Positions 2,156-37,890 of a stretch of 47,546 nucleotides of DNA are shown here, one piece after another. The stretch spans positions 1 through 47,546 of the forward strand of contig JACQTX010000044.1 of the NCBI GenBank assembly GCA_016210585.1, read 5' to 3'. The notes beneath the pieces are model-generated. The model saw nothing but the letters and a program-made list of their open reading frames with translations, did no database searches and was not told where the DNA came from. The stretch is from Chloroflexota bacterium. GTDB taxonomy: Bacteria; Chloroflexota; Dehalococcoidia; Dehalococcoidales; JAFGLR01. The first letter of the stretch is position 1; each line of letters starts with the position of its first letter. A program made the translations under genes and the position numbers.

Positions 2156-2225
2156 CACCATAATAAATAAGCAAAAATGGGAAGCAAAAATGGGCTCGTG
2201 TGAGAGGCCCAAAAGGAGGTTTCAA

Positions 2226-3413: not shown

Positions 3414-3473
3414 GTCTGGGTAGGGAACGCCCTGGGAACCCTAAGAAAATAAGTTAGGGGGTTCAAAACTACG

Positions 3474-4658: not shown

Positions 4659-4765
4659 CGGCGAACTGCTGTCTGACTCGCGGAAAGAGCCAATAGTATG
4701 ATATAGCCTGTTCTTGATGATACCCTCAGGGCAATGATGTCAGGCGTTTTGTTAGGGAGAGCGTA

Positions 4766-5284: not shown

Positions 5285-5320
5285 CGAGTGGTTATCTTAG
5301 GATGGGAATAGTCTAAACCT

Positions 5321-19395: not shown

Positions 19396-19872
19396 ATGTT
19401 ATCGGGGTTTGTTGTGGCTGACGAGCTAGCGAAAATCTTAGCATCATACCGGGGCAACAGAAGCGAGCTACTGTCCATTCTGCGAGAAGTGCAGGACACC
19501 TTCAACTATCTACCGGAAGAAGCCATGCGGCAGGTGGCCAAGTTCATTGGCATTCCGGAAAGCCAACTCTACTCTGTGGCCTCTTTCTACTCTCATTTCC
19601 GCCTGACGCCACTGGGTCGGAAGCGGATTTCCGTCTGCCGCGGCACGGCCTGTCACATTCGCGGTGCCCCGCAGGTCATAGAGGAGGCCGGGCGTCTCCT
19701 TGGCGTCAAGGAATCGGAGACAACACCTGACCTGGAATATACCCTGGAGACTGTGGCCTGTATCGGCTGCTGTGCACTGGCACCCTGCCTGCGTGTGAAT
19801 GAGGAAGTCCACGGCGAGGTGACGCTGAAGAAGGTGCGGGAGCTACTGCCCGACTTGAACAATGGAGCATAG
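19396..19872 (+). CDS. NuoE/HydC-like [2Fe-2S] thioredoxin-fold subunit
   Basis: CRGTACHIRG ... CIGCCALAPC Cys pattern. 158 aa. It starts 2 nt after the upstream stop. Confidence 0.85.
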   Translation: MLSGFVVADELAKILASYRGNRSELLSILREVQDTFNYLPEEAMRQVAKFIGIPESQLYSVASFYSHFRLTPLGRKRISVCRGTACHIRGAPQVIEEAGRLLGVKESETTPDLEYTLETVACIGCCALAPCLRVNEEVHGEVTLKKVRELLPDLNNGA

Positions 19873-21499: not shown

Positions 21500-21506
21500 G
21501 GTTTGT

Positions 21507-21585
21507 AGCTATCAGCAGTCAGCCTTCGGTTTGTGTATTGTAAATAATCAATAAGCTGATAGCTGAAAGCTGATTGCTGATAGCT
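21507..21585. repeat. palindromic intercistronic repeat (agctatcagc family)
   Basis: The arms agctatcagcagtcagc (21507-21523) and gctgattgctgatagct (21569-21585) are 16/17 complementary. It shares 13-nt agctgattgctga and 10-nt gctgaaagct with 42829-42897. Confidence 0.6.
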
Positions 21586-21600
21586 TCGTGTTGGGGTCTG

Positions 21601-24156
21601 ATGGAAACAGTTACACTGACAATTGACGGTCGAAACGTGGTTGCCGAGCGGGGCATCACTGTCCTTGAGGCAGCGCTTGAGAATGGCATCTACATCCCGC
21701 ACCTGTGCTACCACCCGGACTTCGAGTCACATAGTGCCTGTCGGCTGTGCCTGGTTGACACCGGCGATGGCGAGCTTTTGCCCTCCTGCCGACTGACGGT
21801 AGCACCAGGTATGGTTGTTACGACCAATAGCCAGATGATTGAGCGGGCGCGCCGCTCCATACTGGAGATGATGGTCGCCGACCACCATACCACCTGCCGG
21901 GGTTGCCCCAGCAGCGGGCAGTGTGAGCTACAACGGATTATGGGACGGCTGCGCATAGACCGCAAACGTCTCGAAAGGCTGAGATGGCCCACTGAGGATT
22001 TACCACGCGACACGTCCAATCCCTTCTTCGACTTTGACCCCAACAGATGCGTGCTCTGCGGCATTTGCGTCAAGACCTGCGAGGAGATCCAGGGGGCTGA
22101 TGCCATCTATTACACCGCCCGGGGTAATATGACCCGGATCGCCCCCTTCGGCAACAAGCCGTTCGCCCAGTCCCGCTGCGAGTCCTGTGGCGAGTGTGTA
22201 GTCCGGTGCCCCGTCGGGGCTCTGGTGACGAAGAACGTCCAGCGTCCCAAGCAAGAGGTAAAGTCGGTCTGCCCTTACTGCGGGGTTGGCTGCGGTATCT
22301 ATCTGGGTATCCGCGAGGGCGTCATCGTTGATGTGCGCGGTGATACGGCAAGCCCCGTCAATGGCGGCCACCTCTGCGTGAGAGGTCGCTACGGCTGGCG
22401 CTTTGTCCATTCGCCGGAGCGTCTCACGACGCCGCTTGTCAAGAAGAGCGGTGAGCTTGTTCCGGCGTCCTGGGACGAAGCTTTGAGTCTGGTGGCGGAA
22501 AGACTGGCTGGCTACCGCGGCGACCGGTTTGCTATGGTTACCTCAATCAAGCTCACCAACGAAGAGGCTTATCTGGCGCAGAAGTTCGCCCGGACAGTTA
22601 TGGACAGCAACAACATAGATAGCGATGCCCGCCTGTCTGACGCGCCCACACTGGCAGCCTTGCAGAGGACGGTGGGCATGGGTGCCACCAGCCCGCTCAG
22701 TGAGCTGGCGCAGGCAGCTACCATTCTGGCTATTGGGACAAATGCTACCGAGACGCATCCAGTGGTTGGAGCGCGGCTAAGGCAGGCGGCGCGCCGGGGT
22801 GCCTCCCTCATTGTGGCCAATCCACGCGAAATTGACCTCTGCCGCCACGCCAGGATGTGGCTGAGGCCGCACCTGGGCACGGACGTAGCTCTTATCATGG
22901 GGATATGCCGTGTCATTCTGGAAGAAGGGCTGGTGGACGCCAGTCTTGTTGATGAGAAGGCTGCCGGTCTTACGGCCTGGCGTGAGTCACTGCGTGACTT
23001 CAGCCTGGGACGGGTGGAGCGGATTACGGGTGTTCCCCAGGAGGAAATAGCAGAAGCTGCCCGTCTCCTGGCCAGCGGGCCGACGGCTATCGTCTATGGT
23101 GCTGGGATTACCCAACATACCCATGGAACGGACAACGTCCTGGCGCTCATCAATCTGGCGCTGCTTCTCAATACTGGCAACGATAGTCTGAGGCTTTACC
23201 CGCTCCAGGCGCATAACAATGCTTTGGGTGTCTGTGACATGGGCTGCCTGCCGGACTACTTGCCCGGTTATGCGGCCGTGGCTGACGCATCGGTCCGTGA
23301 GCGGCTCGCAGCCGTCTGGAAAGCTGATTTGCCGGCTAGTCCTGGCCGGACCCTGACAGAGATGTGGTCGGCACTGGCGTCGGGGACGGTGAAGGCATTA
23401 TACCTTGTGGGTGCTGACCCCTTGTCAACTATGCCCGGCCATGAGGCAGTACGGCAAGCCCTTGCGTCCGCGGCGTTCGTAGTTGTCCAGGACATGTTCC
23501 TCACCGAGACGGCCAGGCACGCCGATGTCGTTCTACCGGCCGCCAGCTTCGCGGAGCAGGAGGGAACTTTCACCAATATGGAGCGGCGCCTGCAGCGCGT
23601 CCGTAGAGCTATATCACCGGTGGGTGACTCTCGCCCGGGCTGGCAGATTATCACCGAGCTGGCCGGCAGGATGGGTAGCAAAGGTTTCGCTTTCGGCAGT
23701 GCGGCAGAAATAATGGCAGAGGTCGCTGCACTGGTCCCGCCATACGAAAAAGCGAGCCCGGAGGAAAGCACACTATGTAGCTTCCCCGCGGCTGACAGAC
23801 GCTTCGCGCCACTGGCATATGAGCCAGTGGAGAAGATTGCCGATATTGACTACCCATTGCTCCTGGTCACAGAAAGCTGCTTATACCATCATGGTAACTG
23901 GTCAGCCAGAGTGGCCGGACTCAAGGTGCTGGCGGACGAGCCATTTCTACAGGTAAATCCAAAGGATGCCGCGGACTACGGTGTCACGAATGGCCAGATG
24001 GTGCAGGTCGCGTCAAAGCAGGGGGAAATGGTCACAAAAGCTATTGTTTCGGATGTCACGCCGCCCGGCGTGGTGACTCTGAAGGGCGGCGCCCAAGACC
24101 TTCAGGCGTTGCAGGCTGGGCTGACGGCGGTCCGTATAGTCCCCCAAACAGAATGA
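21601..24156 (+). CDS. formate-dehydrogenase-alpha-like molybdopterin-family subunit with substituted active site (Ser/Asp/Gln)
   Basis: I prefer ATG 21601 (METVTLTIDGR...). The N-terminal 2Fe-2S and 4Fe-4S motifs and CPYCGVGC are conserved. The active-site block reads DSDARLSDAPT instead of HCARL(U/C)HAPT, and YPLQAHNNALG instead of NPLRGQNNVQG. Confidence 0.85.
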   Translation: METVTLTIDGRNVVAERGITVLEAALENGIYIPHLCYHPDFESHSACRLCLVDTGDGELLPSCRLTVAPGMVVTTNSQMIERARRSILEMMVADHHTTCRGCPSSGQCELQRIMGRLRIDRKRLERLRWPTEDLPRDTSNPFFDFDPNRCVLCGICVKTCEEIQGADAIYYTARGNMTRIAPFGNKPFAQSRCESCGECVVRCPVGALVTKNVQRPKQEVKSVCPYCGVGCGIYLGIREGVIVDVRGDTASPVNGGHLCVRGRYGWRFVHSPERLTTPLVKKSGELVPASWDEALSLVAERLAGYRGDRFAMVTSIKLTNEEAYLAQKFARTVMDSNNIDSDARLSDAPTLAALQRTVGMGATSPLSELAQAATILAIGTNATETHPVVGARLRQAARRGASLIVANPREIDLCRHARMWLRPHLGTDVALIMGICRVILEEGLVDASLVDEKAAGLTAWRESLRDFSLGRVERITGVPQEEIAEAARLLASGPTAIVYGAGITQHTHGTDNVLALINLALLLNTGNDSLRLYPLQAHNNALGVCDMGCLPDYLPGYAAVADASVRERLAAVWKADLPASPGRTLTEMWSALASGTVKALYLVGADPLSTMPGHEAVRQALASAAFVVVQDMFLTETARHADVVLPAASFAEQEGTFTNMERRLQRVRRAISPVGDSRPGWQIITELAGRMGSKGFAFGSAAEIMAEVAALVPPYEKASPEESTLCSFPAADRRFAPLAYEPVEKIADIDYPLLLVTESCLYHHGNWSARVAGLKVLADEPFLQVNPKDAADYGVTNGQMVQVASKQGEMVTKAIVSDVTPPGVVTLKGGAQDLQALQAGLTAVRIVPQTE

Positions 24157-26380: not shown

Positions 26381-26429
26381 ATCTATGCGTAAAGGCGGCC
26401 AAGTCGAGACTCTTTTCAGGGGGTGTGCT

Positions 26430-27800
26430 ATGGCAAAAATGGAAGACTGGGAGAGTGATGACTCAATAGAACAGGACAATACACCTGTTGACGTTCCGAT
26501 AGAATATAGAAACATTAACGCTAGGGATGACAAAATAAGCTTAGAGGAACTTTGGGAACGTTACAAGAAAGGCAATCTGGTTTTGGAGCCTGACTTCCAG
26601 CGCCATTACGTATGGGACGACAACAGAGCGAGTCGCTATGTAGAATCTTTGCTTCTAGGGCTACCTACTCCGCCAATTTTTATAGCTGAAGAAACCGGCG
26701 GTGAGTGGACAGTTATAGACGGACATCAAAGATTGGGGACTATCTTCCGTTTTATGAAGCCGTTATTAAAAGGCCCATCAGAAGTGGCACACGTAAATAT
26801 CCCTTTCGCCAGTCTCTCACCCCTAATTTTGAAGAATCTCGAAGTTATGTCCGCTGAGTTGAACGGGCATGATATCCAAGGGTTATCGCCAGATGGTAGA
26901 GAGCGGTTATGGAAAACTCAGCTCTCAATAGTTTTGCTTCCCAAAACGGCTCATTCAAAAATGAAATATGTCATGTTTGCGAGATTGAATCTTGGTTCAA
27001 TGAGCTTGAATAATCAGGAACTTAGAAACTGTCTATACCGAGGCAAGTATAATGATTTTATAGCTAAATTGAGCGAAGCACAGCAATTTCTCAAATTGTG
27101 GGGAAAGAACTTTCCGGACAAAAGAATGAGACATAGAGAGTTAGTATTACGTTTCTTCGCATTTCTACACATGAGGGAAAACTACGAACCCCCTTATAGG
27201 ACGTTCCTCAATAGAGAGCTGGAGGAGAATCAAACCATAACGCAAGAAAGACTCTCTCATTACCATTCGCAATTTGACGCTGCAATCAAGTGGGTCGATA
27301 ATATTCTTGTCAAAGAAGCTTTCAGACAGTTTCGTATCGGGGACGAGATAAATCATTCAGGTCGTTGGGTAGCAAAGCGTTATGAACTTGTCTACGAATT
27401 TCAAGCGGTTGGTTTTGCTCAATTCGGTAGCTTACTTGATAATATTTGGGGTAGCATTACCCCCACTGAACAAGACCTGCTACGATTGGTTATCAGGAAT
27501 CGGCTAGTTTCTATTATGGCAACAGACCACTTTGTGGCTAGTATAAAGGAAGGCACTACGAAACCAAGCTCCATAGAGTCTAGGTTTGAACCATGGATTC
27601 AAGTTCTTGAACAAACTACGGGAGATGTCAAGAGGACGCTCGAGTTTGGCAGAACGTTGCATACGGCAATAACTCAAAGCAATATATGTGCTTGGTGTCC
27701 AGTTCAAGTATTACCTGAAGAAGCCGTCCTGGTAACTCTGAACAATAACTACAAGGTAGCACACCGATATTGCCAAAAAGTGCACCAGTCGTTCAAATAA
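26430..27800 (+). CDS. DUF262 (ParB-like nuclease/NTPase, GmrSD N-terminal type) domain protein
   Basis: I prefer ATG 26430 after AGGGGG. It has DFQRHYVW, IDGHQRLGTI and FARLNLGSMSLNNQELRNC blocks. The roughly 200-aa C-terminal part is unrecognised and ends CAWCP...HRYC. GC is about 35-42% in hand-counted samples, against about 60% in neighbouring genes. Confidence 0.8.
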   Translation: MAKMEDWESDDSIEQDNTPVDVPIEYRNINARDDKISLEELWERYKKGNLVLEPDFQRHYVWDDNRASRYVESLLLGLPTPPIFIAEETGGEWTVIDGHQRLGTIFRFMKPLLKGPSEVAHVNIPFASLSPLILKNLEVMSAELNGHDIQGLSPDGRERLWKTQLSIVLLPKTAHSKMKYVMFARLNLGSMSLNNQELRNCLYRGKYNDFIAKLSEAQQFLKLWGKNFPDKRMRHRELVLRFFAFLHMRENYEPPYRTFLNRELEENQTITQERLSHYHSQFDAAIKWVDNILVKEAFRQFRIGDEINHSGRWVAKRYELVYEFQAVGFAQFGSLLDNIWGSITPTEQDLLRLVIRNRLVSIMATDHFVASIKEGTTKPSSIESRFEPWIQVLEQTTGDVKRTLEFGRTLHTAITQSNICAWCPVQVLPEEAVLVTLNNNYKVAHRYCQKVHQSFK

Positions 27801-27892: not shown

Positions 27893-30574
27893 CTACACGG
27901 CAACCGATTGTTTCAGTTTCTCCACCCTTACCGCGCAGACCTTAAGCTCGGGGATTTTGGCTACCGGGTCAAGGGCGGGGCTGGTGAGACGGTTGGCGGG
28001 ACTTTCGGCGAAGTGGAAGGTCATGAAGACCACGCCCGGCGGGGTAGTAGCCGTCAGCTTTGCCCTGGCCGCTACCGTATCACGGCGAGAGGTTATCCGG
28101 ACGGTGTCACCGTCCGCGATGCCCAGTGCCGCAGCATCAGCCGGATTGATTTCGACAAGCTCTTCGCCCATGAACTTATTCAGCCCACCGACCTTCCGGC
28201 TCATGGTGCCGGTGTGGAACTGGAACAGGCTGCGGCCCGTGGTCAGAATGAGAGGATACTCCGCGTCGGGAAGCTCTTGCGGCGGCTTATACTTCAGAGG
28301 TAGGAACTGGCCTTTGCCACGCGTGAACTGGGCCGTATGCAGGATGGGTGTCCCCGGGTGTTTCTCGTCCGGACAAGGCCAGGTCAGACCGCCTGTCTCC
28401 AGCCGGTCGTAGGTAATGCCGCCATAGCTCGGCGTGACGCGGGCAATCTCGGCCATAATCTGGGCCGGGCTGGCAAAGTCAAAGCCCTTGCCGCCCATCC
28501 GCCGGGCAATCTCGCAGGCAATCCACCAGTCTGAACGGGCTTCGCCAACCGGCGCCAGGGCTTGCCTGACCCGCTGCACGCGGCGCTCGGTATTGGTAAA
28601 GGTGCCTTCCTTCTCGGCAAAGGAGACGCCAGGTAAGATAACATCGGCTAATTGTGCCGTCTCCGTCAGGAAAATGTCCTGCACCACAAGGAAGTCCAGC
28701 TTCTCCAGTGCCTTTCTCACATGGCTGGCATCCGGGTCGGAGAGCACCGGGTTTTCGCCGATAAGGTAGACCGCCTTTATCTTGCCCTGGTGGGCGGCAT
28801 CCATAATCTCGGTCAGTGTCAGTCCCGGCTTGTCATCCAGGGTGACGCCCCAGGCGGATTCAAACTTGGCCTTGACGGCCGGGTTGCTCACCGCCTGATA
28901 GCCGGAATAGACATTGGGCAGGGCACCCATATCGCAGGCACCCTGGACATTGTTCTGGCCACGCAGGGGATTAACGCCGGACGAGGGCTTACCCACGTTG
29001 CCGGTGAGCATCGCCAGGTTGGCGATAGCCATGACATTGTCCGTGCCATGCGAGTGCTGGGTAATACCCATGGCGTAGATGATGGACGCCGGGCGGGTGG
29101 TAGCGTAGAGCCGCGCCGCCTCCACTATCTTTGCGACGGGAACGCCCGTAATCTGTGCCACAGAGTCCAGGTCAAAGTCCTTGAGCGATTCCCGGAAGGC
29201 AGCGAAGTTCTCGCCGCGTTGCTCAATAAAAGCTTGGTCAAGCAGTCCTTCAGCAACGATAACCCGCGCCATGCCCATCAGCAGGGCAACATCGCTGCCC
29301 GGGTTCTGCTGGAGCCAGATGTCAGCATAGCGCACCAGCTCAATCTCACGGGGGTTGGCCACGATGAGCTTATTGCCCTTGCGTGTAGCCTGCTTGACGA
29401 TGAAGCCAATCACCGGGTGAGCCGCCGTCGTGTTGGAGCCGATGGCTAAGATACAGGCGGCATCCTTCAGCTCCCCTATCGAGTTAGTCATGGCCCCACT
29501 ACCAAAGCTTTGCGCCAGACCGGCGACAGTGGGGGCATGTCAAAGCCGGGCACAGTGGTCAACGTTGTTCGTGCCGAGAACAGCGCGGGCCAGCTTCTGA
29601 AAGACGTAGTTCTCTTCGTTGGTGCACTTGGCAGAGGTGATGACGGCGACCTCGCCTTTCTGGTAGCTGGCCAGCTTGCGGGCAACGAGGTCAAGGGCCT
29701 CATCCCAGCTAACTTTTTTCAGCTCACCATCCCGGCGCACCAGGGGCGCGGTCAGCCGGTCGGGATGGCTGACGAACTCACCGATGCCGTAGCGGCCTTT
29801 CACACACAGCCAGCCCTTATTGGGACTGTCCTCACGCTTGCCGCGCACGCTCACGATTTCGTGACCACGAATGCCTAGGGACATCTGGCAGCCCACGCCG
29901 CAGTAGGGACAGGTTGTCAGGACCTCACGGGTGGGGCGGCGGGACTCCTTGGGTGCCAGGGCACCGGTAGGACAATGGGCGACGCACTCGCCGCAGGACT
30001 TGCAGATGGAGCTAATCATAAGCTGGTCACCGAAGGTGGCCACCTTGCTCTGGTAGCCGCGGTAGGCCAGGTCAATAGCCCCGACACAGGTGATTTCATT
30101 GCAGGCGCGCACGCAGCGGGCACAGAGAATGCAACGGTTGCGGTCAAGGTCAAAGAAGGGGTTGCTGTCATCCACCGGGAAAGTCCGGGTGGTCTTGGGA
30201 TAGGGCAACCTGGTAATACCGAGGTAAGCCGCCACCTTCTGTAGCTCACAGCGCTGGTTCTGCGGACAGGTCAGACATTCGCTATAGTGGTCAGCACAAA
30301 GCAGCTCAACGGCGGCACGGCGGACATCGTTGGCCGCCGGCGTATCCGTATGGACAACCATGCCTTCCGTGGCCGGCGTAGTGCAAGAGGTGGGCAGGCC
30401 ACGCATCTTCTCAATCTCAACCACGCAGAGACGGCAACCGCCGTAAGGCTCCAGGTCAGGGTCATGGCAAAGGGTGGGGATATAGACGCCGGCGGCCTGG
30501 GCCGCCTCGAGCACCGTGGCCCCTTTCTTAACCTTGACCTCTCGCCCGTCAACAGTCAGTCTTATCTCGTCCAA
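27893..30574 (-). CDS. fdhA: selenocysteine-containing formate dehydrogenase alpha subunit (NAD-linked FdhA type), 893 aa with in-frame UGA
   Basis: Track ORFs 29540..30574 and 27893..29491 are in the same frame, separated only by TGA (plus-strand TCA at 29540-29542). Read-through gives [26 protein letters not shown], the canonical FdhH/FdhA active-site block. NPLRGQNNVQGACDMG is also present. TTG start at 30574 after AGGAGG. Confidence 0.85.
29494..29542 (-). promoter_or_regulatory. UGA (Sec) codon plus bacterial SECIS-like hairpin
   Basis: mRNA: UGA CAU GCC CCC ACU GUC GCC GGU CUG GCG CAA AGC UUU GGU AGU GGG G. A CGCC/GGCG stem with a GGUCU loop starts 18 nt after the UGA, the same spacing and GGUC loop as I recall for E. 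coli fdhF. It is nested in a 7-bp CCCCACU/AGUGGGG stem. Confidence 0.6.
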
Positions 30575-30583
30575 AATGGCCTC

Positions 30584-33500
30584 CTATTCATGCTCCTCAA
30601 GGTCACAACGCAAGCAGCGCCTCGCCTCTTCTGCCGCCAGCTCCGCGGTCAGGCCAAGCTCAACCGTGGCAAAGCTGCAAAGGCGCTGGCCAAGCGGCAG
30701 CACGGGCATGACAGGCCGGCGTTTCTCACCCGCCTCCTCAAGCGGCTTAAGCTCGCCTTCGGGCGGCGCCAGCTTCTCATCAATCTCACCCTTGCCGCCG
30801 AGGGACTTGTCTATCGAAATAGCCGCCTGTCGGCCGGCGGCAATGGCCTCAATGACCGAAGCCGGCCCGGTGACGGCATCACCCCCGGCGAAGATACCAG
30901 CTTTACCGGTCGCCAGCGTATCCAGATCAACCTTAATGGTATTGCCGCCGCCAGTGGTCAATTCTCCGGGAACTTCCGGCTGCTGTCCTATAGCCGCTAT
31001 TACGGTATCGAAGACAAGAGAGAACTCACTGCCCTTTACTGCCACCGGGCGCCGCCGTCCCGAAGTGTCAACATCACCCAGGGCCATATGGACGCACTCC
31101 AATTGCACCTGCTTGCCTTGCTGGGCTATCTTCGTCGGTGCTGACAGGAAAAGGACTTGGACGCCCTCGGCCAGGGCGTCTTCAATCTCCTCATCGCTGG
31201 CCGGCATCTCGGCACGGGTGCGCCGGTAAATCATAGTGACTTCCGCAGCGCCAAGACGCAGTGCCGTGCGCGCCGCATCAATGGCAGCATTGCCGCCACC
31301 AATAACCGCTACCTTATCGCCCACAGCTACCGTGTGGCCGAGGTTAACTTCTCTCAGGAACGATACGCAATCTATTACCTGCGGGCTGTCTTCGCCGGGG
31401 ATGCCCAGCTTGAGACCGCGGTGCGCCCCTACGGCCAGGAAGACCGCCTGGTAGCCTTGCGCCAGCAGGCTCTCCGGATTCTCAATGCGAGTGTTCGTCT
31501 TTATCTTGACGCCGGCGTTCTCTATTTCCGCAATCTCCGCGCCCAGCATGTCCTTGGGCAGGCGGTAATCGGGGATGCCCACCTTCATCATGCCGCCCGG
31601 CTCCGGCAGTGCCTCAAAGACCGTCACGGAATGCCCCAGCCTGGCCAGGTAGTAAGCCGCTGTCAGGCCGGCCGGGCCTGAGCCGACCACCGCCACCTGT
31701 TTGCCGGTGGGCGGCGCCGCCTTGACGCCCTGCTTCCACAGCCCGTTGCCAAACTCGGCGGCAAACCGCTTGAGCATACGGATGCCGACGGCCTCATCAA
31801 GCTGGCCGCGGCGGCACTTCGTCTCGCAGGGATGGACGCAGACATAGCCACAGACCGAGGGGAAGGGTATCTTCTCCCGGATGACAGCTACCGACTCATC
31901 CGGCTTGCCCGCTTCGATGAAGCGGATATAGCGCGGCACATCAATGCCCGCCGGGCAGGTATGGCTACAGGGTGCCCTGACCAGGCCGGAACACACCGCG
32001 GCCGCGCAGTGATGTTTCTTAATGTGCTCCTCATATTCGTTCCGGAAGTAGCGCAGGCTGGAGAGCACGGGATTGGGTGCCGTCTGCCCCAGGCCACAGA
32101 GGGAGCCGATCTTGACCTGTTTGCCCAGGTCTTCCAGCAATGCAATGTCCTCCGGCGTGCCCTGGCCGCGGGCGATTTTCCCCAGCGTATCCATTATCTG
32201 CTTGGTGCCCAGCCGGCACATGACGCATTTGCCGCAGGACTCGGACTGGGTGAACGAGATGAAGTAGCGGGCGAAGTCCACCATGCAGGTGTCCTCATCC
32301 AGGACCACCATGCCGCCGGAGCCCATGATGGAGCCGGCCTCGGTGAGCGACTCGTAGTCAACGGATAAGTCCAGGCGGCTGGCCGGGATACAGCCCCCGG
32401 AGGGGCCACCCGTCTGGACGCCCTTCAGCCGCTTGCCGCCGGCCACGCCATCGCCGATATCATAGATAATCTCTTTCAAAGTGATGCCGATGGGCACCTC
32501 GATGAGCTGGGGCTTATTGACCTTGCCCACCAAAGAGAAGGTCTTGGTGCCCTTGCTGCGCGCTGAGCCGTAGCAGGCAAACCACTCGGCGCTGTTGTGC
32601 AGAATGGCCGCCACGGCGGCCCACGTCTCGGTGTTGTTGATGTTGGTCGGTTTGCCCCACAGCCCGGCCTGGGCCGGGAAGGGTGGGCGGGGACGGGGCA
32701 TACCCCGTTTCCCCTCGATGGAGGCCATCAGCGCCGTCTCCTCGCCGCAGACAAAGGCCCCGGCGCCTTCTTTGATTTTAATGTGGAAGCTGAAACCACT
32801 GCCCAGTATGTTGTCACCGATGAAGCCATACTCCGTCGCCTGCTGAAGCGCCAGCTTCAACCGCTCAATGGCCAAGGGGTATTCGGCACGGATATAGACA
32901 TAGCCCTCGGTCGCCCCGATAGCATAGGCCCCGATGAGCATCCCCTCCAGCACAGAGTGGGGGTCGCCCTCGATGAGCGAGCGGTTCATAAAGGCGCCAG
33001 GGTCGCCCTCATCAGCGTTGCAGACGATGTATTTGATCTTGCCAGGCGATTGCCGGCAAAGCTCCCACTTGGTCCCGGTAGGGAAGCCGGCGCCGCCGCG
33101 CCCGCGCAGGCCTGATTTCTTTATCTCCTGGATAACACCCTCCGGCGTCATCTTGAGCGTCTTGACCAGCCCGCCGTAGCCGCCGCGGGCGATGTAGTGG
33201 TCAAGCTTTTCCGGGTCAATAAAGCCGCAGTTGCGCAGGATAATACGCACCTGGGGCTTCAGCATGGGTAGCTCGAAGAAATTGGAGATACCAGCCACGC
33301 TGCCTTCGCCCATACTGCCCAGTGCCAGGTCCGGCTGCGGGTTGTCTTTGATAAGGTAGTCCTCGATGAGGTGGGCTGCTATTTCCGGGGTTACATTGCT
33401 GTAGCAGATGCGGGGGCGGCCTGGCTTTACTATGTCCAGCAAAGGCTCGGCGTAGCACAGGCCGATACAGCCGGTCTGCATGATAATGGCGTCAAGCTGG

Positions 33501-33655
33501 TGCCGCTCCAGCTCCGCCTTGACCCTGTCCAGCACATGAAGTGCCCCCGAGGCCCGTCCGCACGTAGCCGCCCCAACGATAATGCGGGGCTTATCCGTGT
33601 TTTCCAGTGCCGCCCACTCCGTCAGGGCACGGTCCTTAATCTCTTCAAAAGTCAC
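30584..33655 (-). CDS. NuoF-like FMN/NAD(H) subunit fused to a GltD/NfnB-like FAD/NAD(P)H oxidoreductase (1023 aa)
   Basis: The N-terminal two-thirds carry GLRGRGGAGFPTGTKW, CNADEGDPGAF, GAGAFVCGEETAL, ESCGKCVMCRLG and LCGLGQTAPNPV. The C-terminal third has a GltD-type Fe-S region (CPAGIDVPRYI...VCGYVCVHPCETKC) and two Rossmann motifs (VAVVGSGPAGLTAAYYLA, VAVIGGGNAAIDAART). Confidence 0.85.
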   Translation of the reverse strand: MTFEEIKDRALTEWAALENTDKPRIIVGAATCGRASGALHVLDRVKAELERHQLDAIIMQTGCIGLCYAEPLLDIVKPGRPRICYSNVTPEIAAHLIEDYLIKDNPQPDLALGSMGEGSVAGISNFFELPMLKPQVRIILRNCGFIDPEKLDHYIARGGYGGLVKTLKMTPEGVIQEIKKSGLRGRGGAGFPTGTKWELCRQSPGKIKYIVCNADEGDPGAFMNRSLIEGDPHSVLEGMLIGAYAIGATEGYVYIRAEYPLAIERLKLALQQATEYGFIGDNILGSGFSFHIKIKEGAGAFVCGEETALMASIEGKRGMPRPRPPFPAQAGLWGKPTNINNTETWAAVAAILHNSAEWFACYGSARSKGTKTFSLVGKVNKPQLIEVPIGITLKEIIYDIGDGVAGGKRLKGVQTGGPSGGCIPASRLDLSVDYESLTEAGSIMGSGGMVVLDEDTCMVDFARYFISFTQSESCGKCVMCRLGTKQIMDTLGKIARGQGTPEDIALLEDLGKQVKIGSLCGLGQTAPNPVLSSLRYFRNEYEEHIKKHHCAAAVCSGLVRAPCSHTCPAGIDVPRYIRFIEAGKPDESVAVIREKIPFPSVCGYVCVHPCETKCRRGQLDEAVGIRMLKRFAAEFGNGLWKQGVKAAPPTGKQVAVVGSGPAGLTAAYYLARLGHSVTVFEALPEPGGMMKVGIPDYRLPKDMLGAEIAEIENAGVKIKTNTRIENPESLLAQGYQAVFLAVGAHRGLKLGIPGEDSPQVIDCVSFLREVNLGHTVAVGDKVAVIGGGNAAIDAARTALRLGAAEVTMIYRRTRAEMPASDEEIEDALAEGVQVLFLSAPTKIAQQGKQVQLECVHMALGDVDTSGRRRPVAVKGSEFSLVFDTVIAAIGQQPEVPGELTTGGGNTIKVDLDTLATGKAGIFAGGDAVTGPASVIEAIAAGRQAAISIDKSLGGKGEIDEKLAPPEGELKPLEEAGEKRRPVMPVLPLGQRLCSFATVELGLTAELAAEEARRCLRCDLEEHE

Positions 33656-33674: not shown

Positions 33675-34139
33675 TCAGCCGCCGGCTGATAGGATTTCGC
33701 CCACCGTCTTGGTCGTCATCCGTCCATAGACGTCTTTGTCCACAACCATGACCGGGGCCAGGGCACAGGAGCCGAAGCAGGCCACTGTTTCCAGGGAGTA
33801 GGCCAGGTCTTCCGTAGTCTCACCGGACTTGATACCAAGCTGTTTCTCCGCCTCACGCAGGATGCGCAGGCTGCCCCGCACATGACAGGCGGTGCCCCGG
33901 CAGACCCTGATCACCTTCCGCCCGGTAGGGATGAACTTGAACTGGGCATAGAAGGTGGCTACACCAAAGACCGTGCTTGCCGGCAGACGCAGAAAATCGG
34001 CAATGCGTGCCATCACGTCTCCCGAAAGATAGCCGAACCTCTCCTGGGCGCTCTGGAGGATGGAGATTAGCTCACTCTTATCTCCGGAGTAGCGCGCCAG
34101 GATTTCACCAAGCTCGTCTTTGACGCCAGTTTCCAGCAT
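33675..34139 (-). CDS. NuoE/HydC-like [2Fe-2S] subunit
   Basis: CRGTACHVRG ... CFGSCALAPV pattern. 154 aa. It is a paralogue of 19396-19872. Confidence 0.85.
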   Translation of the reverse strand: MLETGVKDELGEILARYSGDKSELISILQSAQERFGYLSGDVMARIADFLRLPASTVFGVATFYAQFKFIPTGRKVIRVCRGTACHVRGSLRILREAEKQLGIKSGETTEDLAYSLETVACFGSCALAPVMVVDKDVYGRMTTKTVGEILSAGG

Positions 34140-34594: not shown

Positions 34595-35848
34595 ATGTCG
34601 AAGAGAGCAAAGATTCTGGGAACTACTATCTCTATACTTGTCATCGTCACCCTTGTCCTGACTGCCTGCGCCAAACCGGCGCCAGCACCGACCGTTACCG
34701 TCACTACCACGGCTACAGCCACCGCACCGGCAGGTGCGGCGCCTACTGTTACGGTGACAGCCACACCAACAGCCGCCCCACCACCGACGGGCAAATTCAG
34801 CCCGGTTTCTCTGACCCATGCTTCCGCCCTGTCTTCTTACTCGTCTAACTGGGGTCTGGGCCTCAAACCCTTCATGGATGAGGTGAACCGGCTAACGGAT
34901 AACGCCCTGACGGTCAAGGTCAATATGGCTGGTGCCCTGCTGGGCGCCAAAGATATCCTGGATGGCACCGTCTCCGGGGTAGCCGATATCTCCTATTTCA
35001 ACGGTGCCGAGTTCCCGGCACAGCTCCCCTCCATGCAGCTCGGCAGCGTGGCTGACCCCATCCTCTCCGTCAGCCATCCTGATGAGGCCACCTGGGTGAT
35101 GATCGCCCAGCTCATCGCCAACGAGTTTGTAGCCCCGGAGTATGACAAAGCCGGACTCAAGTACCTCTGGGGAGTCGGTGCCTCCGAAAATACCCTCTTC
35201 CTTAACAAGAACGTGGCCACTCTGGATGACTTTAAGGGCATGAAGCTGAGAGTGTGGGCGGGCAAATACCAGGCCAGGCTATACGAGGCCATGGGTGCTA
35301 CGGCTGTGCCCGTTGTCGCCGCGGACTGGGCTGATGCGATCCAGAAGAACCTGGTAAATGGCGGTCTCACCCCACTGGACGTGGCTAACAGCTTCGGCAT
35401 TCTGCCTTACACTCAGTTCTGGATGACCAACAAGAAGGGTTCCACCTCTTTCTACATGGCCTGGCTGGTGGGGCATGGCCATGCTATGAATAAGAAGACC
35501 TGGGACAGTTTGACCCCCGACTGGAAGCGGGCGCTGCTCAAGGGCGCCAAGCAAGCCACTACTGCCTGGAGACTCGGTCACGTATCTCAGTTCATTGAGC
35601 CGGCCATAGTGTCCGGGGAGAAGGTGGGCGGCAAATTTATCAACCTGCCTGAGGCGGACCTGCAGAAGCTGATGAAGGGACCGCTAATGGCCAGTGTTTG
35701 GGATGATGCTGCGAAAGAGGTGGATGCGGCCGGGGGCAAGGGCACCGCGATGCTGACCCGGATACGCGAGCTACAGGTCATGCCTGGCGCTCAGATAGAA
35801 TTCCTCTTCGAGCAAATGTGGAGTAAGCGTATCGCCGACCTGAAGTAA
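34595..35848 (+). CDS. TRAP transporter substrate-binding lipoprotein (DctP family), cassette 2
   Basis: Strong RBS (AAGGAGG). Lipobox LTAC, a Thr/Pro/Ala stalk of about 40 aa, then a DctP-like body. The dctQ and dctM genes follow. Confidence 0.8.
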   Translation: MSKRAKILGTTISILVIVTLVLTACAKPAPAPTVTVTTTATATAPAGAAPTVTVTATPTAAPPPTGKFSPVSLTHASALSSYSSNWGLGLKPFMDEVNRLTDNALTVKVNMAGALLGAKDILDGTVSGVADISYFNGAEFPAQLPSMQLGSVADPILSVSHPDEATWVMIAQLIANEFVAPEYDKAGLKYLWGVGASENTLFLNKNVATLDDFKGMKLRVWAGKYQARLYEAMGATAVPVVAADWADAIQKNLVNGGLTPLDVANSFGILPYTQFWMTNKKGSTSFYMAWLVGHGHAMNKKTWDSLTPDWKRALLKGAKQATTAWRLGHVSQFIEPAIVSGEKVGGKFINLPEADLQKLMKGPLMASVWDDAAKEVDAAGGKGTAMLTRIRELQVMPGAQIEFLFEQMWSKRIADLK

Positions 35849-35856
35849 AAATAAAC

Positions 35857-35892
35857 CCGTCTTTAGCCCGCCTGCAGGCGGGCTAAAGACGG
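35857..35892 (+). other. perfect 16-bp intercistronic stem-loop (dctP2/dctQ2)
   Basis: ccgtctttagcccgcc / ggcgggctaaagacgg with loop TGCA. No T-tract follows. Confidence 0.7.
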
Positions 35893-35917
35893 AGCGGTAA
35901 GGACAAACAGGTAGGCC

Positions 35918-36397
35918 ATGTTGCGGAGAATTTTTGACGGCCTGTCCAACATCGGCAACTACATTGCCGGCATATTTCTCGTCATTGTCATGTTGCTGAC
36001 AATGGGCGAGATAACGGGACGCTATGTGTTCAGCCACCCCATTCCGGGCAATTTTGAAATCATAGAGCTGACCGTAGGGGTGCTGGCCACTATTGGCTTT
36101 GCCTTTGCTCTGGAGCAGGGCAAACACATCAGGGCGACAGTCCTGGTTGACCGCTTCGATGAAGTGGCACAGCGCGTCCTCCTGCTCATCAGCTACCTGG
36201 CCGGCTTTGTGGTGACCGGACTCTTGACATGGCAGCTTGCCATTGGCGCTATTCGGTCGGTGCAGATAAAGGAGGTCACCTATGGCCTCCTGCCTGTCCC
36301 GATGTATCCGACCAGAATCATCCTTGTCTTTTCGGTGGGATTGTTCTGCCTGGGGTTCTTACTGCGCTTCATCTGGGACCTCAGACGACAGCGTTAA
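35918..36397 (+). CDS. TRAP transporter small permease (DctQ family), cassette 2
   Basis: 159 aa with four TM helices and a GRYVFSHPIPG motif region like the cassette 1 DctQ. Confidence 0.8.
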   Translation: MLRRIFDGLSNIGNYIAGIFLVIVMLLTMGEITGRYVFSHPIPGNFEIIELTVGVLATIGFAFALEQGKHIRATVLVDRFDEVAQRVLLLISYLAGFVVTGLLTWQLAIGAIRSVQIKEVTYGLLPVPMYPTRIILVFSVGLFCLGFLLRFIWDLRRQR

Positions 36398-36403
36398 CCG
36401 AGT

Positions 36404-36438
36404 GTGCGGGCTATCCTTCTCAGAAGGATAGCCCGCAC
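36404..36438 (+). other. perfect 16-bp intercistronic stem-loop (dctQ2/dctM2)
   Basis: gtgcgggctatccttc / gaaggatagcccgcac with a 3-nt loop. No T-tract follows. It sits in a 159-nt gap. Confidence 0.7.
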
Positions 36439-36556
36439 GTTACCAATGTAGCTGTGCCGCGAGTACTGCTCAGCTTTTCCCCAGAGCCGTGACAGTCTGA
36501 AGGCGAGACGCGTCATAAAGAGGCTTTCGTGGTAAAGGTGATTGTGGAGGCTTGAA

Positions 36557-37870
36557 ATGGACCCATTTCTCGTAGCCTTACTTTCTTTCGTGGTCTTTCT
36601 CGTGCTGGTCCTGCTGGGCATGCACGTAGGCACCGCGTTAATTATCGTGGCCCTGACGGGCATGATAATCGTCAAAGGGTGGGCCTCTGCCATCAGCACG
36701 CTACGCTTTGTCCCCTTTTCCAGCGTGGTCAACTATAACCTCGCCGTCGTGCCCATGTTTATCCTGATGGGGGAGTTCATTTCCGCCTCTGGCCTGGTGG
36801 TCGGGTTCTTTGAAGCGGCACAGGCGTGGGTGGGACGTATCAAGGGTGGACTCGGCATCACCGTGGCTATAATGGGCGCCGGACTGGGCGCGGTGACCGG
36901 TTCCGCGGTAGCCGGTGCCGCCATGATGACCCGGACGGCTTTCCCTGAGATGCTGAAACATAAATATGACGCGGCTGTCAGTTCCGGTCTCATCGCGGCG
37001 GTTAGCCCCTTAGTCTTGATTATTCCCCCAAGCATCTTCCTGGTCTTCTATGCCATAGTTGTCGAGGTGTCAGTGACCCAGGTCCTGATAGCCGGTTTCC
37101 TGCCTGGATTCTTCATGGCAGCCGTATATGCTCTGGTGATTTACGTCATGGCGATACGCTCTCCGCACAAGCTGCCACCGGTCCAGCGCACCTATACCTT
37201 CAAGGAGAGGATGACTGCCTCAAAAGGGGTGCTGCCCATCGTGATAACCATAGTGGCGCTGCTGGGCGGCCTTTACGCTGGTGTCTTTACGGCTTCCGAG
37301 GTCGGGGGGGCGGGCGCCTTCATCGCCGTCATAGCCCTGATAGTTTTCCAGCGCGGCAAGGCATGGCGAATGGGCATGGCTTCTGTCTGGGAAGCGGCGG
37401 GCATGACGTCAATGATTTTCTATATCGTCATCGGCGCCCTGCTCTATGGCCGGTTCATCGCGGCTACCGGGGCCACTCCCCGGATAGTCGAGGCCATGAC
37501 GACTATCTCTATCTCACCCTATGTCACGTTCCTGCTGGTAGTCATTCTATATCTCATACTTGGCTGCTTCATTGACGGTATCTCCCTAATGGCAATCACG
37601 CTGCCGATTGTCTATCCATTGCTGACGAGCCTGGGTTTTGACGGTATCTGGCTCGGCGTCATGGTGACCATTCTGGTCGGCGTAGGTGCCTTAACGCCAC
37701 CCTTCGGCATCGTGGTATTTACAGTGAAAAGCATTATCGGTCCCCAGGTTGAGCTGATGACGATTTTCAAGAACACCATGCCCTTCTTCTTTGCCACGCT
37801 GGTGATAATAGTCATACTTACCGTCTGGCCGGAAATAGTCATGCTGTTACCCAACCTGGCCGCTAAATAG
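36557..37870 (+). CDS. TRAP transporter large permease (DctM family), cassette 2
   Basis: I prefer ATG 36557 after GTGGAGG over the track's TTG at 36542. Polytopic, with PMFILMGEF and ALTPPFGIVVFT blocks. Confidence 0.9.
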   Translation: MDPFLVALLSFVVFLVLVLLGMHVGTALIIVALTGMIIVKGWASAISTLRFVPFSSVVNYNLAVVPMFILMGEFISASGLVVGFFEAAQAWVGRIKGGLGITVAIMGAGLGAVTGSAVAGAAMMTRTAFPEMLKHKYDAAVSSGLIAAVSPLVLIIPPSIFLVFYAIVVEVSVTQVLIAGFLPGFFMAAVYALVIYVMAIRSPHKLPPVQRTYTFKERMTASKGVLPIVITIVALLGGLYAGVFTASEVGGAGAFIAVIALIVFQRGKAWRMGMASVWEAAGMTSMIFYIVIGALLYGRFIAATGATPRIVEAMTTISISPYVTFLLVVILYLILGCFIDGISLMAITLPIVYPLLTSLGFDGIWLGVMVTILVGVGALTPPFGIVVFTVKSIIGPQVELMTIFKNTMPFFFATLVIIVILTVWPEIVMLLPNLAAK

Positions 37871-37890
37871 ATAGAGAGTCAGGAGGGAAA

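What the first reader, a model, noticed from the sequence alone, without database searches (positions are those of the whole stretch)
29494..29545. In-frame TGA plus fdhF-like SECIS: the two minus-strand FDH ORFs are one selenoprotein gene
ORF 29540..30574 ends ...NNVDHCARL at a TGA (plus-strand TCA at 29540-29542). The same frame continues [16 protein letters not shown] and runs into the M of ORF 27893..29491 (MTNSIGEL...). The joined sequence [24 protein letters not shown] is the canonical Sec active-site block. Eighteen nt after the UGA the mRNA forms CGCC-GGUCU-GGCG. That is the same distance and the same GGUC apical loop on the Gly-Leu codons GGU CUG as I recall for the E. coli fdhF SECIS. 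It is nested in a 7-bp CCCCACU/AGUGGGG stem. Standard gene callers would report two fragments or a pseudogene here.
Basis: partly seen in the sequence, partly recalled or inferred. Interest (0 to 1): 0.65.

Follow-up and report, generated by a model that had tools for sequence, protein, structure and literature searches.

The report
Selenocysteine formate dehydrogenase gene with SECIS
The two minus-strand reading frames are one ordinary selenocysteine-containing formate dehydrogenase gene of an uncultured groundwater Dehalococcoidia bacterium, whose in-frame UGA is followed by the conserved hairpin that directs selenocysteine insertion: a useful annotation fix, not a new biology.

Summary
A minus-strand TGA (29542..29540) joins ORFs 29540..30574 and 27893..29491 in frame. 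The joined 893-residue protein matches the FdhA family model end to end (861.9 bits, cutoff 666). All key residues of E. coli FDH-H are kept, and the TGA lies at Sec140.

Of 83 homologous genes, 49 have TGA at this codon and 34 have Cys codons. A hairpin 15-31 nt after the UGA, with loop GGUCU, is 98% paired with compensatory changes in the TGA genes. It is only 57% paired in the Cys genes. Synonymous sites are frozen only in the hairpin codons, and only in TGA genes.

The window's hairpin, CGCC-GGUCU-GGCG, meets all four published bacterial SECIS criteria. GGUCUG sits at exactly the E. coli fdhF offset. Rfam SECIS_3 matches at 48.6 bits (E 1.9e-10). That is below its gathering score, but above the score of the Moorella thermoacetica fdhA element.

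Two corrections apply:
- The 7-bp outer stem exists but is not conserved in that register.
- Thermodynamic folding alone prefers a competing fold.

No Sec machinery lies in the window, and the rest of the genome could not be searched. This is a new member of the most widespread bacterial selenoprotein family. Interest is low.

The parts
27893..30574 (-). fdhA, one gene of 893 codons plus a TAG stop. It encodes the selenocysteine-containing alpha subunit of formate dehydrogenase. The start is TTG at 30574, preceded by GGAGG with a 5-nt spacer. Sec is residue 345.
   Evidence: Translation. TIGR01591 861.9 bits against a cutoff of 666.25, in one stretch across the TGA. Pfam domains: Fer2_4, NADH-G_4Fe-4S_3, Fer4_Nqo3, Molybdop_Fe4S4, Molybdopterin (split by the TGA) and Molydop_binding. 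Closest solved structure is R. capsulatus FdsA, 6TG9, at 821 bits. Shine-Dalgarno sequence read.
29540..29542 (-). In-frame UGA, read as the selenocysteine codon (Sec345).
   Evidence: It aligns with E. coli FdhF Sec140. The same codon is TGA in 49 homologues and TGT/TGC in 34. It is reproduced in independent contigs of two runs.
29513..29525 (-). SECIS apical hairpin CGCC-GGUCU-GGCG. It can also be drawn as 5 bp closed by G.U with loop GUC. It spans the Val-Ala-Gly-Leu-Ala codons, and the loop begins 18 nt after the UGA.
   Evidence: -5.4 kcal/mol on its own. RNAalifold on 50 TGA sequences returns only this hairpin. It is 98% paired, and 3 of 6 pairs show compensatory changes. The Cys control is 57% paired. 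The window's C-G at alignment columns 24/36 is itself a compensatory swap of the consensus G-C.
29494..29534 (-). Lower helix CCCCACU/AGUGGGG (29534..29528 with 29500..29494) that encloses the apical hairpin. It can be extended by CAUG/CAUG (29539..29536 with 29492..29489).
   Evidence: It is present and stable in this sequence (-11.6 kcal/mol with the apical part blocked). In this register it is not conserved: 60.9% paired in TGA genes against 62.8% in Cys genes. When any register is allowed, the flanks of TGA genes pair somewhat better than those of Cys genes (mean -7.5 against -5.4 kcal/mol).
29487..29545 (-). Full-length match to Rfam RF01989 (SECIS_3), including the UGA.
   Evidence: 48.6 bits, E 1.9e-10, model positions 1-59 of 59. 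This is below the gathering score of 63, so the gathering scan did not list it.
30584..33655 (-). Upstream operon gene encoding a NuoF-like module (FMN/NADH, 4Fe-4S) fused to a GltD/NfnB-like module (FAD/NADPH, 2x4Fe-4S), 1023 aa. It is the presumed electron-transfer partner of FdhA.
   Evidence: Pfam Complex1_51K, NADH_4Fe-4S, Fer4_20 and Pyr_redox_2. NCBIfam nuoF_fam and PRK12771. The same gene order occurs in many related loci.
33675..34139 (-). First operon gene, a NuoE-like thioredoxin-like [2Fe-2S] subunit of 154 aa. Its stop codon is TGA.
   Evidence: Pfam 2Fe-2S_thioredx 169.7 bits. NCBIfam NuoE PRK07539.1-2 151.2 bits against a cutoff of 141. Stop codon.

Best explanation
The stretch 27893..30574 (minus strand) is a single gene, fdhA. 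It encodes the molybdenum- or tungsten-bis-pterin catalytic subunit of a cytoplasmic, NAD(P)-linked formate dehydrogenase.

Shown here:
- Codon 345 is UGA, and it sits at the position of the catalytic Sec or Cys in this enzyme family.
- Fifteen to thirty-one nucleotides downstream, the mRNA can form a short hairpin with loop GGUCU.
- This hairpin is conserved through compensatory base changes and frozen synonymous sites in homologues that carry TGA, and has decayed in homologues that carry a Cys codon.

Inferred from the established bacterial mechanism:
- When the ribosome reaches the UGA, the lower helix is already unwound and the apical hairpin lies just outside the mRNA entry channel.
- SelB, carrying GTP and Sec-tRNA(Sec), binds the hairpin loop through its C-terminal winged-helix domains.
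- SelB delivers selenocysteine to the A site in competition with release factor 2.
- The selenium then ligates the Mo or W atom next to His346 and Arg538.

The enzyme is co-transcribed with a NuoE-like subunit and a NuoF-GltD fusion. These presumably pass electrons between formate/CO2 and NAD(H) and/or NADP(H). The source organism is an uncultured groundwater member of the class Dehalococcoidia.
For: One gene:
- The frame is continuous across the TGA.
- The Pfam Molybdopterin domain is split by the TGA, with profile positions 1-81 in one ORF and 95-352 in the other.
- TIGR01591 scores 861.9 bits against a cutoff of 666.25, in one stretch.
- The match to 6TG9 FdsA covers residues 4-885.
- Eight key E. 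coli FDH-H residues are conserved, with U140 aligned to the UGA.

The TGA is real and recoded rather than a general sense codon:
- The sequence is identical in contigs from two independent runs.
- TGA ends 4 of 23 family-matched genes in the window, so it is a normal stop there.

SECIS:
- 49 of 83 homologues have TGA at this codon.
- The apical helix is 98.0% paired in TGA genes, with 15 compensatory cells in 3 pairs. It is 57.1% paired in Cys genes.
- Third-position entropy in the hairpin codons is 0.67 bit in TGA genes and 1.89 in Cys genes. At other third positions it is 1.47 against 1.50.
- The loop is GGUCU in 46 of 50 TGA genes.
- RNAalifold finds only this hairpin in the TGA set and nothing in the Cys set.
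- Rfam SECIS_3 scores the window at 48.6 bits. TGA controls score 36.6-57.9, including M. thermoacetica fdhA at 45.1. Cys controls score 26-35 or do not match.
- All four criteria of the published bSECIS model (PMC13188914) are met.
- GGUCUG is at the same offset as in E. coli fdhF.

Context:
- The nuoE-nuoF(-gltD)-fdhA order recurs in related loci.
- The best hits of the window's pyruvate-phosphate dikinase (PPDK) are all Dehalococcoidia or Chloroflexota MAGs.
- Dehalococcoidia include some of the most selenoprotein-rich bacteria (PMC13326102).
- In one survey, 93% of genomes with a Sec-type Fdh carried selABCD (PMC13582414).
Against: - No selA, selB, selD or tRNA-Sec lies in the 47.5-kb window. 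The rest of the genome could not be reached. The species is not in the genome collection, where the best FdhA hit is 77% identical. Only contigs of about 1 kb carry its genes in the assembly index.
- The window's apical helix has only 4 Watson-Crick pairs, against 6 in 46 of 50 TGA relatives.
- Minimum-energy folding prefers a competing structure by 1.9-4 kcal/mol, whatever part of the 5' side is removed.
- The Rfam score is below the family's gathering score.
- Part of any SECIS model score comes from coding-sequence homology, since Cys homologues still reach 26-35 bits.
- The statistical contrasts between TGA and Cys genes are not corrected for shared ancestry.
- There are no expression or proteomic data.
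Confidence: 0.9

Rival explanations
1. The UGA is recoded with the help of the same hairpin, but as cysteine rather than selenocysteine. This would use a tRNA(ReC)/SelC*-type tRNA, so the product would be a Cys-type FdhA.
For: tRNA(ReC) has been reported to decode UGA as Cys in the presence of a downstream SECIS. It is found in both Sec-type and Cys-type genomes (PMC13582414, citing Vargas-Rodriguez et al. 2018). Close relatives switch freely between TGA and Cys codons: L001 and L002 carry Cys, L003 carries TGA, and L038 carries TGT with an intact hairpin. Nothing in the window identifies the decoding tRNA.
Against: tRNA(ReC) was found in only about 17% of Sec-type genomes in that survey, mostly alongside a normal tRNA-Sec. 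In contrast, 93% of genomes with a Sec-type Fdh carry selABCD. FdhA is the classic selenoprotein (PMC13188914).
Confidence: 0.04
2. The TGA is a nonsense mutation, or the gene is naturally split. The cell would then make a truncated 344-residue Fe-S protein, possibly plus a separate 532-residue protein started at ATG 29491, and would have no active formate dehydrogenase.
For: A plain gene caller would read it this way (PMC13326102). A G-rich stretch (GGUAGUGGGG) precedes ATG 29491 and could pass as a ribosome-binding site. The Sec machinery has not been shown.
Against: The same codon is TGA in 49 homologues from many phyla. Both halves are intact, with no frameshift or further stop. The downstream hairpin is under selection only in TGA genes. 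A split would remove the metal ligand and cut the Molybdopterin domain in two. The sequence is identical in two samples.
Confidence: 0.04
3. The organism reads UGA as a sense codon throughout its genome, as in code 4 or code 25, so no special element is involved.
For: TGA is the rarest stop among the window's confident genes, at 4 of 23.
Against: Four genes with full-length family matches end at TGA: nuoE, the thiolase gene, the FdhA-like paralogue and an amidinotransferase-like gene. Only one TGA in 47.5 kb is flanked by long open frames on both sides. Dehalococcoidia are not known to use such codes (my own knowledge).
Confidence: 0.01

Closest known systems
E. coli fdhF (formate dehydrogenase H, Sec140) and its SECIS
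   Same: The UGA is at the homologous codon. The context is CAR(V/L)-U-H-(G/A)-P-(S/T)-V-A-G-L. GGUCUG lies on the Gly-Leu codons, 18 nt after the UGA. A short apical helix sits above a lower helix. All checked catalytic and cluster residues are conserved, and the catalytic domain is 42% identical.
   Different: The E. coli apical helix is UGCA/UGCA with a 4-nt loop GGUC and a bulged U below it. The window has CGCC/GGCG with a 5-nt loop (or G.U closure and loop GUC) and no bulged U. The window protein has an extra 215-residue NuoG-like N-terminal Fe-S domain. Its partners are NuoE/NuoF-type subunits rather than the hydrogenase-3 complex.
Moorella thermoacetica NADP-dependent FdhA (Sec) and its SECIS. 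From my own knowledge, this is the RNA used in SelB-SECIS crystal structures (Yoshizawa et al. 2005, listed as reference 17 in PMC4605307).
   Same: It belongs to the same FdhA subfamily and is locus L044 in the homologue set, 59% identical over the segment compared. It has TGA at the same codon and the hairpin GUGGCC-GGUCU-GGCCA at the same place. Its Rfam SECIS_3 score is similar: 45.1 bits against 48.6 for the window.
   Different: The Moorella helix has 6 bp and the window's has 4 bp. At the third pair the window has C-G where Moorella has G-C. The partner subunits differ.
Rhodobacter capsulatus FdsABG(D), NAD+-dependent formate dehydrogenase (PDB 6TG9/6TGA)
   Same: This is the closest solved structure to the whole protein, at 821 bits over residues 4-885. 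It has the same NuoG-like N-terminus, and the same logic of NuoE-like and NuoF-like partner subunits.
   Different: The R. capsulatus enzyme uses Cys rather than Sec at the metal (my own knowledge). Its NuoF-like subunit has no GltD-like extension.
Rfam RF01989 (SECIS_3)
   Same: The alignment covers the whole model, including the UGA, the apical hairpin and the AUGAC tail. The E-value is 1.9e-10.
   Different: The score of 48.6 is below the gathering score of 63. The model's lower helix is only partly formed in the window, with five non-standard pairs marked. No relative tested reached the gathering score either.
Sporomusa-type Nfn (StnABC) electron-bifurcating transhydrogenase (PMC7483475)
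   Same: It uses the same four modules: NuoE-like, NuoF-like, GltD/NfnB-like and NuoG/FdhA-like.
   Different: In Stn the GltD module is fused to the NuoG-like subunit, and that subunit has no formate dehydrogenase activity. In the window GltD is fused to NuoF, and the NuoG-like subunit is a complete FdhA with Sec, His and Arg. Whether the window's complex bifurcates electrons is unknown.

Membership tests
Formate dehydrogenase alpha subunit, FdhA (NCBIfam TIGR01591), Sec type | Full-length match to the family model above its curated cutoff. | tested here: met
   861.9 bits against a cutoff of 666.25. One stretch covers profile positions 1-672 of 672 and protein residues 220-884, crossing the TGA.
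Formate dehydrogenase alpha subunit, FdhA (NCBIfam TIGR01591), Sec type | In-frame UGA at the position of the metal-ligating Sec/Cys, followed by the catalytic His, with the catalytic Arg present. | tested here: met
   U345 aligns with E. coli U140, H346 with H141 and R538 with R333. Homologues carry TGA (49) or TGT/TGC (34) at this codon. The roles of these residues are from my knowledge of the FDH-H structure (1AA6/1FDO).
Formate dehydrogenase alpha subunit, FdhA (NCBIfam TIGR01591), Sec type | The four Cys of the [4Fe-4S] cluster and the two molybdopterin-binding domains. | tested here: met
   C222, C225, C229 and C257 align with E. coli C8, C11, C15 and C42. Pfam finds Molybdop_Fe4S4, Molybdopterin and Molydop_binding.
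Formate dehydrogenase alpha subunit, FdhA (NCBIfam TIGR01591), Sec type | Selenium in the protein, and formate oxidation or CO2 reduction activity. | not testable with these tools
   This needs 75Se labelling or mass spectrometry, and an enzyme assay.
Bacterial SECIS element (consensus bSECIS model as stated in PMC13188914) | Apical loop of 3-9 nt on an upper stem of 4-16 bp. | tested here: met
   Loop GGUCU (5 nt) on CGCC/GGCG (4 bp), which is the lower limit.
Bacterial SECIS element (consensus bSECIS model as stated in PMC13188914) | At least one G in the first two loop positions (G followed by G or U). | tested here: met
   The loop starts GG-U. 49 of the 50 TGA sequences compared (the window included) start their loop with GG.
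Bacterial SECIS element (consensus bSECIS model as stated in PMC13188914) | [quoted passage not shown] | tested here: met
   18 nt, the same as in E. coli fdhF.
Bacterial SECIS element (consensus bSECIS model as stated in PMC13188914) | Folding energy of -7.5 kcal/mol or lower. | tested here: met
   -15.3 kcal/mol for the apical hairpin plus the 7-bp lower helix, and -21.7 with the CAUG extension. The apical hairpin alone is only -5.4. The global minimum-energy fold (-23.6) is a different structure.
Bacterial SECIS element (consensus bSECIS model as stated in PMC13188914) | Structure maintained by selection: covariation in Sec genes and decay in Cys homologues. | tested here: met
   98.0% against 57.1% paired, and 3 of 6 pairs with compensatory changes. 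Synonymous-site entropy is 0.67 against 1.89 bit. The inner 4 bp form in 48/50 against 5/33. None of this is corrected for phylogeny.
Bacterial SECIS element (consensus bSECIS model as stated in PMC13188914) | Binding by SelB, and hairpin-dependent read-through of the UGA. | not testable with these tools
   This needs a binding assay or a reporter with synonymous hairpin-breaking changes.
Rfam RF01989 (SECIS_3) | Bit score at or above the family's gathering score (63). | tested here: not met
   48.6 bits, with no listing in the gathering scan. TGA relatives also fall short at 36.6-57.9 bits, among them M. thermoacetica at 45.1. I therefore do not file it as a member of RF01989, only as a bacterial SECIS of the fdhA type.
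Sec-decoding trait of the host genome | selA, selB, selC (tRNA-Sec) and selD in the same genome. | not testable with these tools
   None is in the window: ARAGORN finds no tRNA, family scans of 40 ORFs find none, and tblastn with E. coli SelA and SelB finds none. The rest of the genome is not available.

The most novel reading that the evidence does not exclude
The Sec-FdhA may be the catalytic head of a formate dehydrogenase type that has not been characterised. Its electron-transfer partner is a NuoF-GltD/NfnB fusion plus NuoE. These are the same four modules as the electron-bifurcating Stn transhydrogenase, joined differently. The complex might therefore couple formate/CO2 to both NADH and NADPH, or to ferredoxin, by flavin-based bifurcation.

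A smaller alternative is that the UGA is read as Cys through a tRNA(ReC)-type system.
Probability: 0.2. Interest if true: 0.45.

Novelty: new member of a known kind. Interest (0 to 1): 0.15.

Why it matters
The main value is correct annotation. Read as two fragments or as a pseudogene, this bacterium would wrongly appear to lack a working formate dehydrogenase. That would distort any metabolic reconstruction involving formate use or CO2 reduction, for example in a Wood-Ljungdahl-type pathway, for an uncultured groundwater Dehalococcoidia lineage.

The finding also predicts that the genome carries selA, selB, selC and selD, and that the organism needs selenium.

The set of 83 homologues gives a clean natural experiment for how little RNA a fdhA-type SECIS needs. 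It contains TGA genes with the hairpin, Cys genes without it, and a few caught in transition.

None of this is surprising to a specialist. FdhA is the most widespread bacterial selenoprotein, and Sec/Cys exchange in it is documented (PMC13188914).

Tried and rejected
- The Rfam scan at gathering thresholds found nothing in the window. It also found nothing in nine related loci. The SECIS_3 match appears only in the permissive scan.
- Single-sequence folding was not informative. Removing the 5' side to mimic a ribosome at the UGA did not change this.
- A search of the window for Sec machinery found no tRNA. No sel family appeared among 40 scanned ORFs. tblastn with E. coli SelA and SelB found nothing.
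- In the 80 related loci, only L071 (Perlabentimonas) has tRNA-Sec, selA and selB beside its fdhA. That gave no Chloroflexota sel query to work from.
- Attempts to find the source contig failed. The exact C-terminal ORF is not on record. The NuoE protein is carried only by Logan contigs shorter than 2 kb, the one shown being 1.2 kb. The species is absent from the genome collection.
- A scan for further split selenoprotein genes in the window found no other credible candidate. The TGA at 11351 upstream of the NYN-domain ORF is preceded by non-coding-looking sequence.
- I rejected a genome-wide UGA sense code.
- I looked in PMC5424206 for the tRNA(ReC) system and it is not described there. It is described in PMC13582414.
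Full report
**What is in the sequence**

On the minus strand, the codon at 29542..29540 is TGA. It ends ORF 29540..30574 (...NNVDHCARL). The same frame runs on as [16 protein letters not shown] into the ATG at 29491, which opens ORF 27893..29491 (MTNSIGEL...).

Read through, the frame gives 893 residues. It starts at a TTG at 30574, which lies 5 nt behind a GGAGG, and ends at a TAG.

The RNA after the UGA reads CAUGCCCCCACUGU-CGCC-GGUCU-GGCG-CAAAGCUUUGGU-AGUGGGG-CCAUG. Together they evaluate to -15.3 kcal/mol.

One detail needs correcting. Fourteen nucleotides separate the UGA from the stem, and 18 separate it from the loop.

**One gene or two**

- The Pfam Molybdopterin domain is cut by the TGA. 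Profile positions 1-81 lie at the end of the upstream ORF, and positions 95-352 lie at the start of the downstream one.
- The joined protein matches NCBIfam TIGR01591 (formate dehydrogenase subunit alpha) at 861.9 bits, against a curated cutoff of 666.25. The match is a single stretch over the whole profile.
- The closest solved structure is FdsA of the NAD-dependent formate dehydrogenase of Rhodobacter capsulatus (6TG9), at 821 bits over residues 4-885.
- I aligned the protein with E. coli FdhF taken from NC_000913.3. The UGA falls on Sec140. Cys8/11/15/42, Lys44, His141 and Arg333 all have identical counterparts: C222, C225, C229, C257, K259, H346 and R538.

This is one fdhA gene.

**Is the TGA real, and is it an ordinary stop in this organism?**

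Logan contigs from two independent groundwater metagenome runs cover 29300/29312..29623 without a single difference.

Among 23 window genes with family matches, 14 end in TAG, 5 in TAA and 4 in TGA. The gene for the NuoE-like subunit of the same operon is one of the four. UGA is therefore a normal stop here.

The fdhA site is the only TGA in 47.5 kb with long open frames on both sides, 347 and 548 codons.

**Is the hairpin a SECIS?**

A fold of the single sequence cannot answer this.
- The 66 nt fold only slightly better than shuffles (z = -1.74).
- The competitor stays 2-4 kcal/mol ahead when the 5' side is removed to mimic a ribosome sitting on the UGA.

The answer comes from comparison. A scan of one genome per species returned 80 loci with relatives of the catalytic region, 54-77% identical. 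With second copies counted, these give 83 genes. At the aligned codon, 49 have TGA, 22 have TGT and 12 have TGC.

- RNAalifold on the 49 TGA sequences plus the window predicts exactly one structure. For the 33 Cys sequences it predicts nothing.
- Counted on fixed columns, this helix is paired in 98.0% of cells in the TGA set. Three of its six pairs show changes on both sides: G-C to C-G, A-U or U-A at the third pair, C-G to A-U at the sixth, and G-C to A-U at the fourth. In the Cys set the same columns are paired in 57.1% of cells.
- The window's own CGCC/GGCG is one of the compensatory variants. It has C-G where the consensus has G-C, as do L039, L052 and L068.
- Third-codon-position entropy in the five hairpin codons is 0.67 bit in TGA genes against 1.89 in Cys genes. 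At the other 15 third positions, the two sets are alike (1.47 and 1.50).
- The inner four pairs all form in 48 of 50 TGA genes and in 5 of 33 Cys genes. The loop is GGUCU in 46 of 50 TGA genes.

These contrasts are not corrected for shared descent. However, TGA and Cys forms are interleaved among close relatives. L001 and L002 (77% and 76% identical) are Cys, and L003 (75%) is TGA. This argues against a purely phylogenetic effect.

**Independent models**

Rfam's SECIS_3 (RF01989) aligns to 29545..29487 over its full 59 positions, UGA included, at 48.6 bits and E = 1.9e-10. This is below the gathering score of 63, so I do not file the element under that family.

Controls show what the score means.
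- Five TGA relatives score 36.6-57.9. Among them is Moorella thermoacetica fdhA at 45.1. From my own knowledge, its SECIS-SelB complex has been solved.
- Two of four Cys relatives score 34.7 and 26.2. The other two do not match.

The model thus takes part of its score from coding homology. The window still sits squarely in the TGA range.

The published consensus model for bacterial SECIS elements sets four criteria: a 3-9 nt loop on a 4-16 bp stem, a G in the first two loop positions, 16-37 nt from the UGA to the loop, and an energy of -7.5 kcal/mol or lower (PMC13188914). The window meets all four. It has a 5-nt loop on 4 bp, the loop starts GG, the spacing is 18 nt, and the energy is -15.3 kcal/mol.

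The real E. coli fdhF sequence has GGUCUG at exactly the same offset.

**The outer stem**

CCCCACU/AGUGGGG is stable in this sequence. With the apical part blocked it evaluates to -11.6 kcal/mol, among the strongest in the set.

In that register it is paired in 60.9% of cells in TGA genes and 62.8% in Cys genes. Most of it therefore follows from conserved Pro and Gly codons.

When any register is allowed, the flanks of TGA genes pair somewhat better than those of Cys genes (mean -7.5 against -5.4 kcal/mol, Mann-Whitney p = 2.5e-4, uncorrected). Some lower helix is probably favoured, without a fixed form.

The window and L068 are the only two TGA sequences whose apical helix is shortened to 4 bp, because a Gln codon CAA follows. 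Both have a strong lower helix in the same register. This is suggestive, but it rests on two cases.

**Mechanism**

Three points are shown here:
- the UGA sits at the catalytic position;
- the hairpin is under RNA-level selection;
- its distance from the UGA is that of characterised elements.

The rest is inferred from the established bacterial pathway (PMC4605307; PMC13188914). SelB, carrying GTP and Sec-tRNA(Sec), binds the apical loop and delivers Sec to the UGA in competition with RF2. The selenium then ligates Mo or W next to His346 and Arg538.

**Context**

The gene is the last of three on the minus strand.
- nuoE-like, 33675..34139.
- A 1023-residue fusion of a NuoF-like module with a GltD/NfnB-like module, 30584..33655.
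- fdhA.

The order nuoE-nuoF-fdhA is common among the relatives. The NuoF-GltD fusion recurs in at least eight of the loci inspected, including L010, L016, L024, L025 and L040.

This points to a cytoplasmic NAD(P)-linked enzyme. Its four modules are those of the bifurcating Stn transhydrogenase, joined differently (PMC7483475). Whether the complex bifurcates electrons is open.

The best hits of the window's pyruvate-phosphate dikinase (PPDK) are all Dehalococcoidia or Chloroflexota MAGs, at 78% identity or less, and several come from groundwater. The runs holding the sequence are groundwater metagenomes.

Sec-type NAD-FDH has been reported in subsurface Chloroflexi (PMC5736913, PMC4959059). 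Some Dehalococcoidia rank among the most selenoprotein-rich bacteria (PMC13326102).

**What is missing**

The window holds no tRNA and no selA, selB or selD. I could not reach the rest of the genome.

In a recent survey, 93% of genomes with a Sec-type Fdh carried selABCD (PMC13582414). The prior for the machinery is therefore high, but this remains untested.

The same paper notes that tRNA(ReC) can read UGA as Cys with a SECIS. That reading stays open as a minor rival.

**Verdict**

The finding is a correct annotation call on a new member of the best-known bacterial selenoprotein family. Interest is low.

Noticed in passing
window 19396..24156 (+): A second NuoE-like / NuoF-like / FdhA-like cluster sits 4 kb from the first. 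Its FdhA-like protein (21574..24156, 860 aa) is about 45% identical to the true FdhA (406 identical columns in a 909-column alignment). It has Ser-Asp (DARLSDAPT) where the true FdhA has Sec-His, and it falls below the TIGR01591 cutoff (603.6 against 666.25). It is probably not a formate dehydrogenase. It resembles the Ser-bearing FDH-like proteins of Dehalococcoides, or the inactive NuoG-like part of StnC.
   Followed up: partly
window 26385..27800 (+): An ORF with a GmrSD_N restriction-endonuclease domain (471 aa) lies in a patch of 45.5% GC, in a window that mostly has 52-62% GC. It sits between fdhA and acpS, which are adjacent in the related Dehalococcoidia chromosome L006. It looks like an inserted defence gene.
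   Followed up: partly
window 30584..33655 (-); L001 7006..11082; L013 6171..10223: The GltD/NfnB-like module is fused to the C-terminus of NuoF in the window. In L001 (first copy) and L013 it sits inside FdhA, between the N-terminal Fe-S domain and the catalytic domain. This is domain shuffling within one enzyme family among fairly close relatives.
   Followed up: partly
L001 9406, L002 496, L038 388 (codon aligned with the window's TGA): The two closest relatives of the window's FdhA (77% and 76% identical, both Dehalococcoidia) have Cys codons and a decayed hairpin. L038 has TGT with a perfect hairpin, GTAGCCGGTCTGGCTAC. These look like recent switches between Sec and Cys.
   Followed up: partly
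window 2190..6640 and 34595..39057 (+): There are two TRAP transporter gene sets (DctP, a small ORF, DctM). Each is accompanied by a weakly amidinotransferase/arginine-deiminase-like ORF (3474..4658 and 37891..39057). This is a duplicated uptake-plus-enzyme module of unknown substrate.
   Followed up: no
window 29514..29578, runs X1 and X2: Short contigs from other community members lie over the Sec-site region with 4-5 differences, at word depths of up to about 106. Related fdhA genes from more abundant organisms are therefore present in the same groundwater samples.
   Followed up: no
L071 428..3451: In Perlabentimonas gracilis, tRNA-Sec, selA and selB lie directly upstream of the Sec-type fdhA operon. 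It is the only one of the 80 related loci where the Sec machinery is linked to fdhA.
   Followed up: partly
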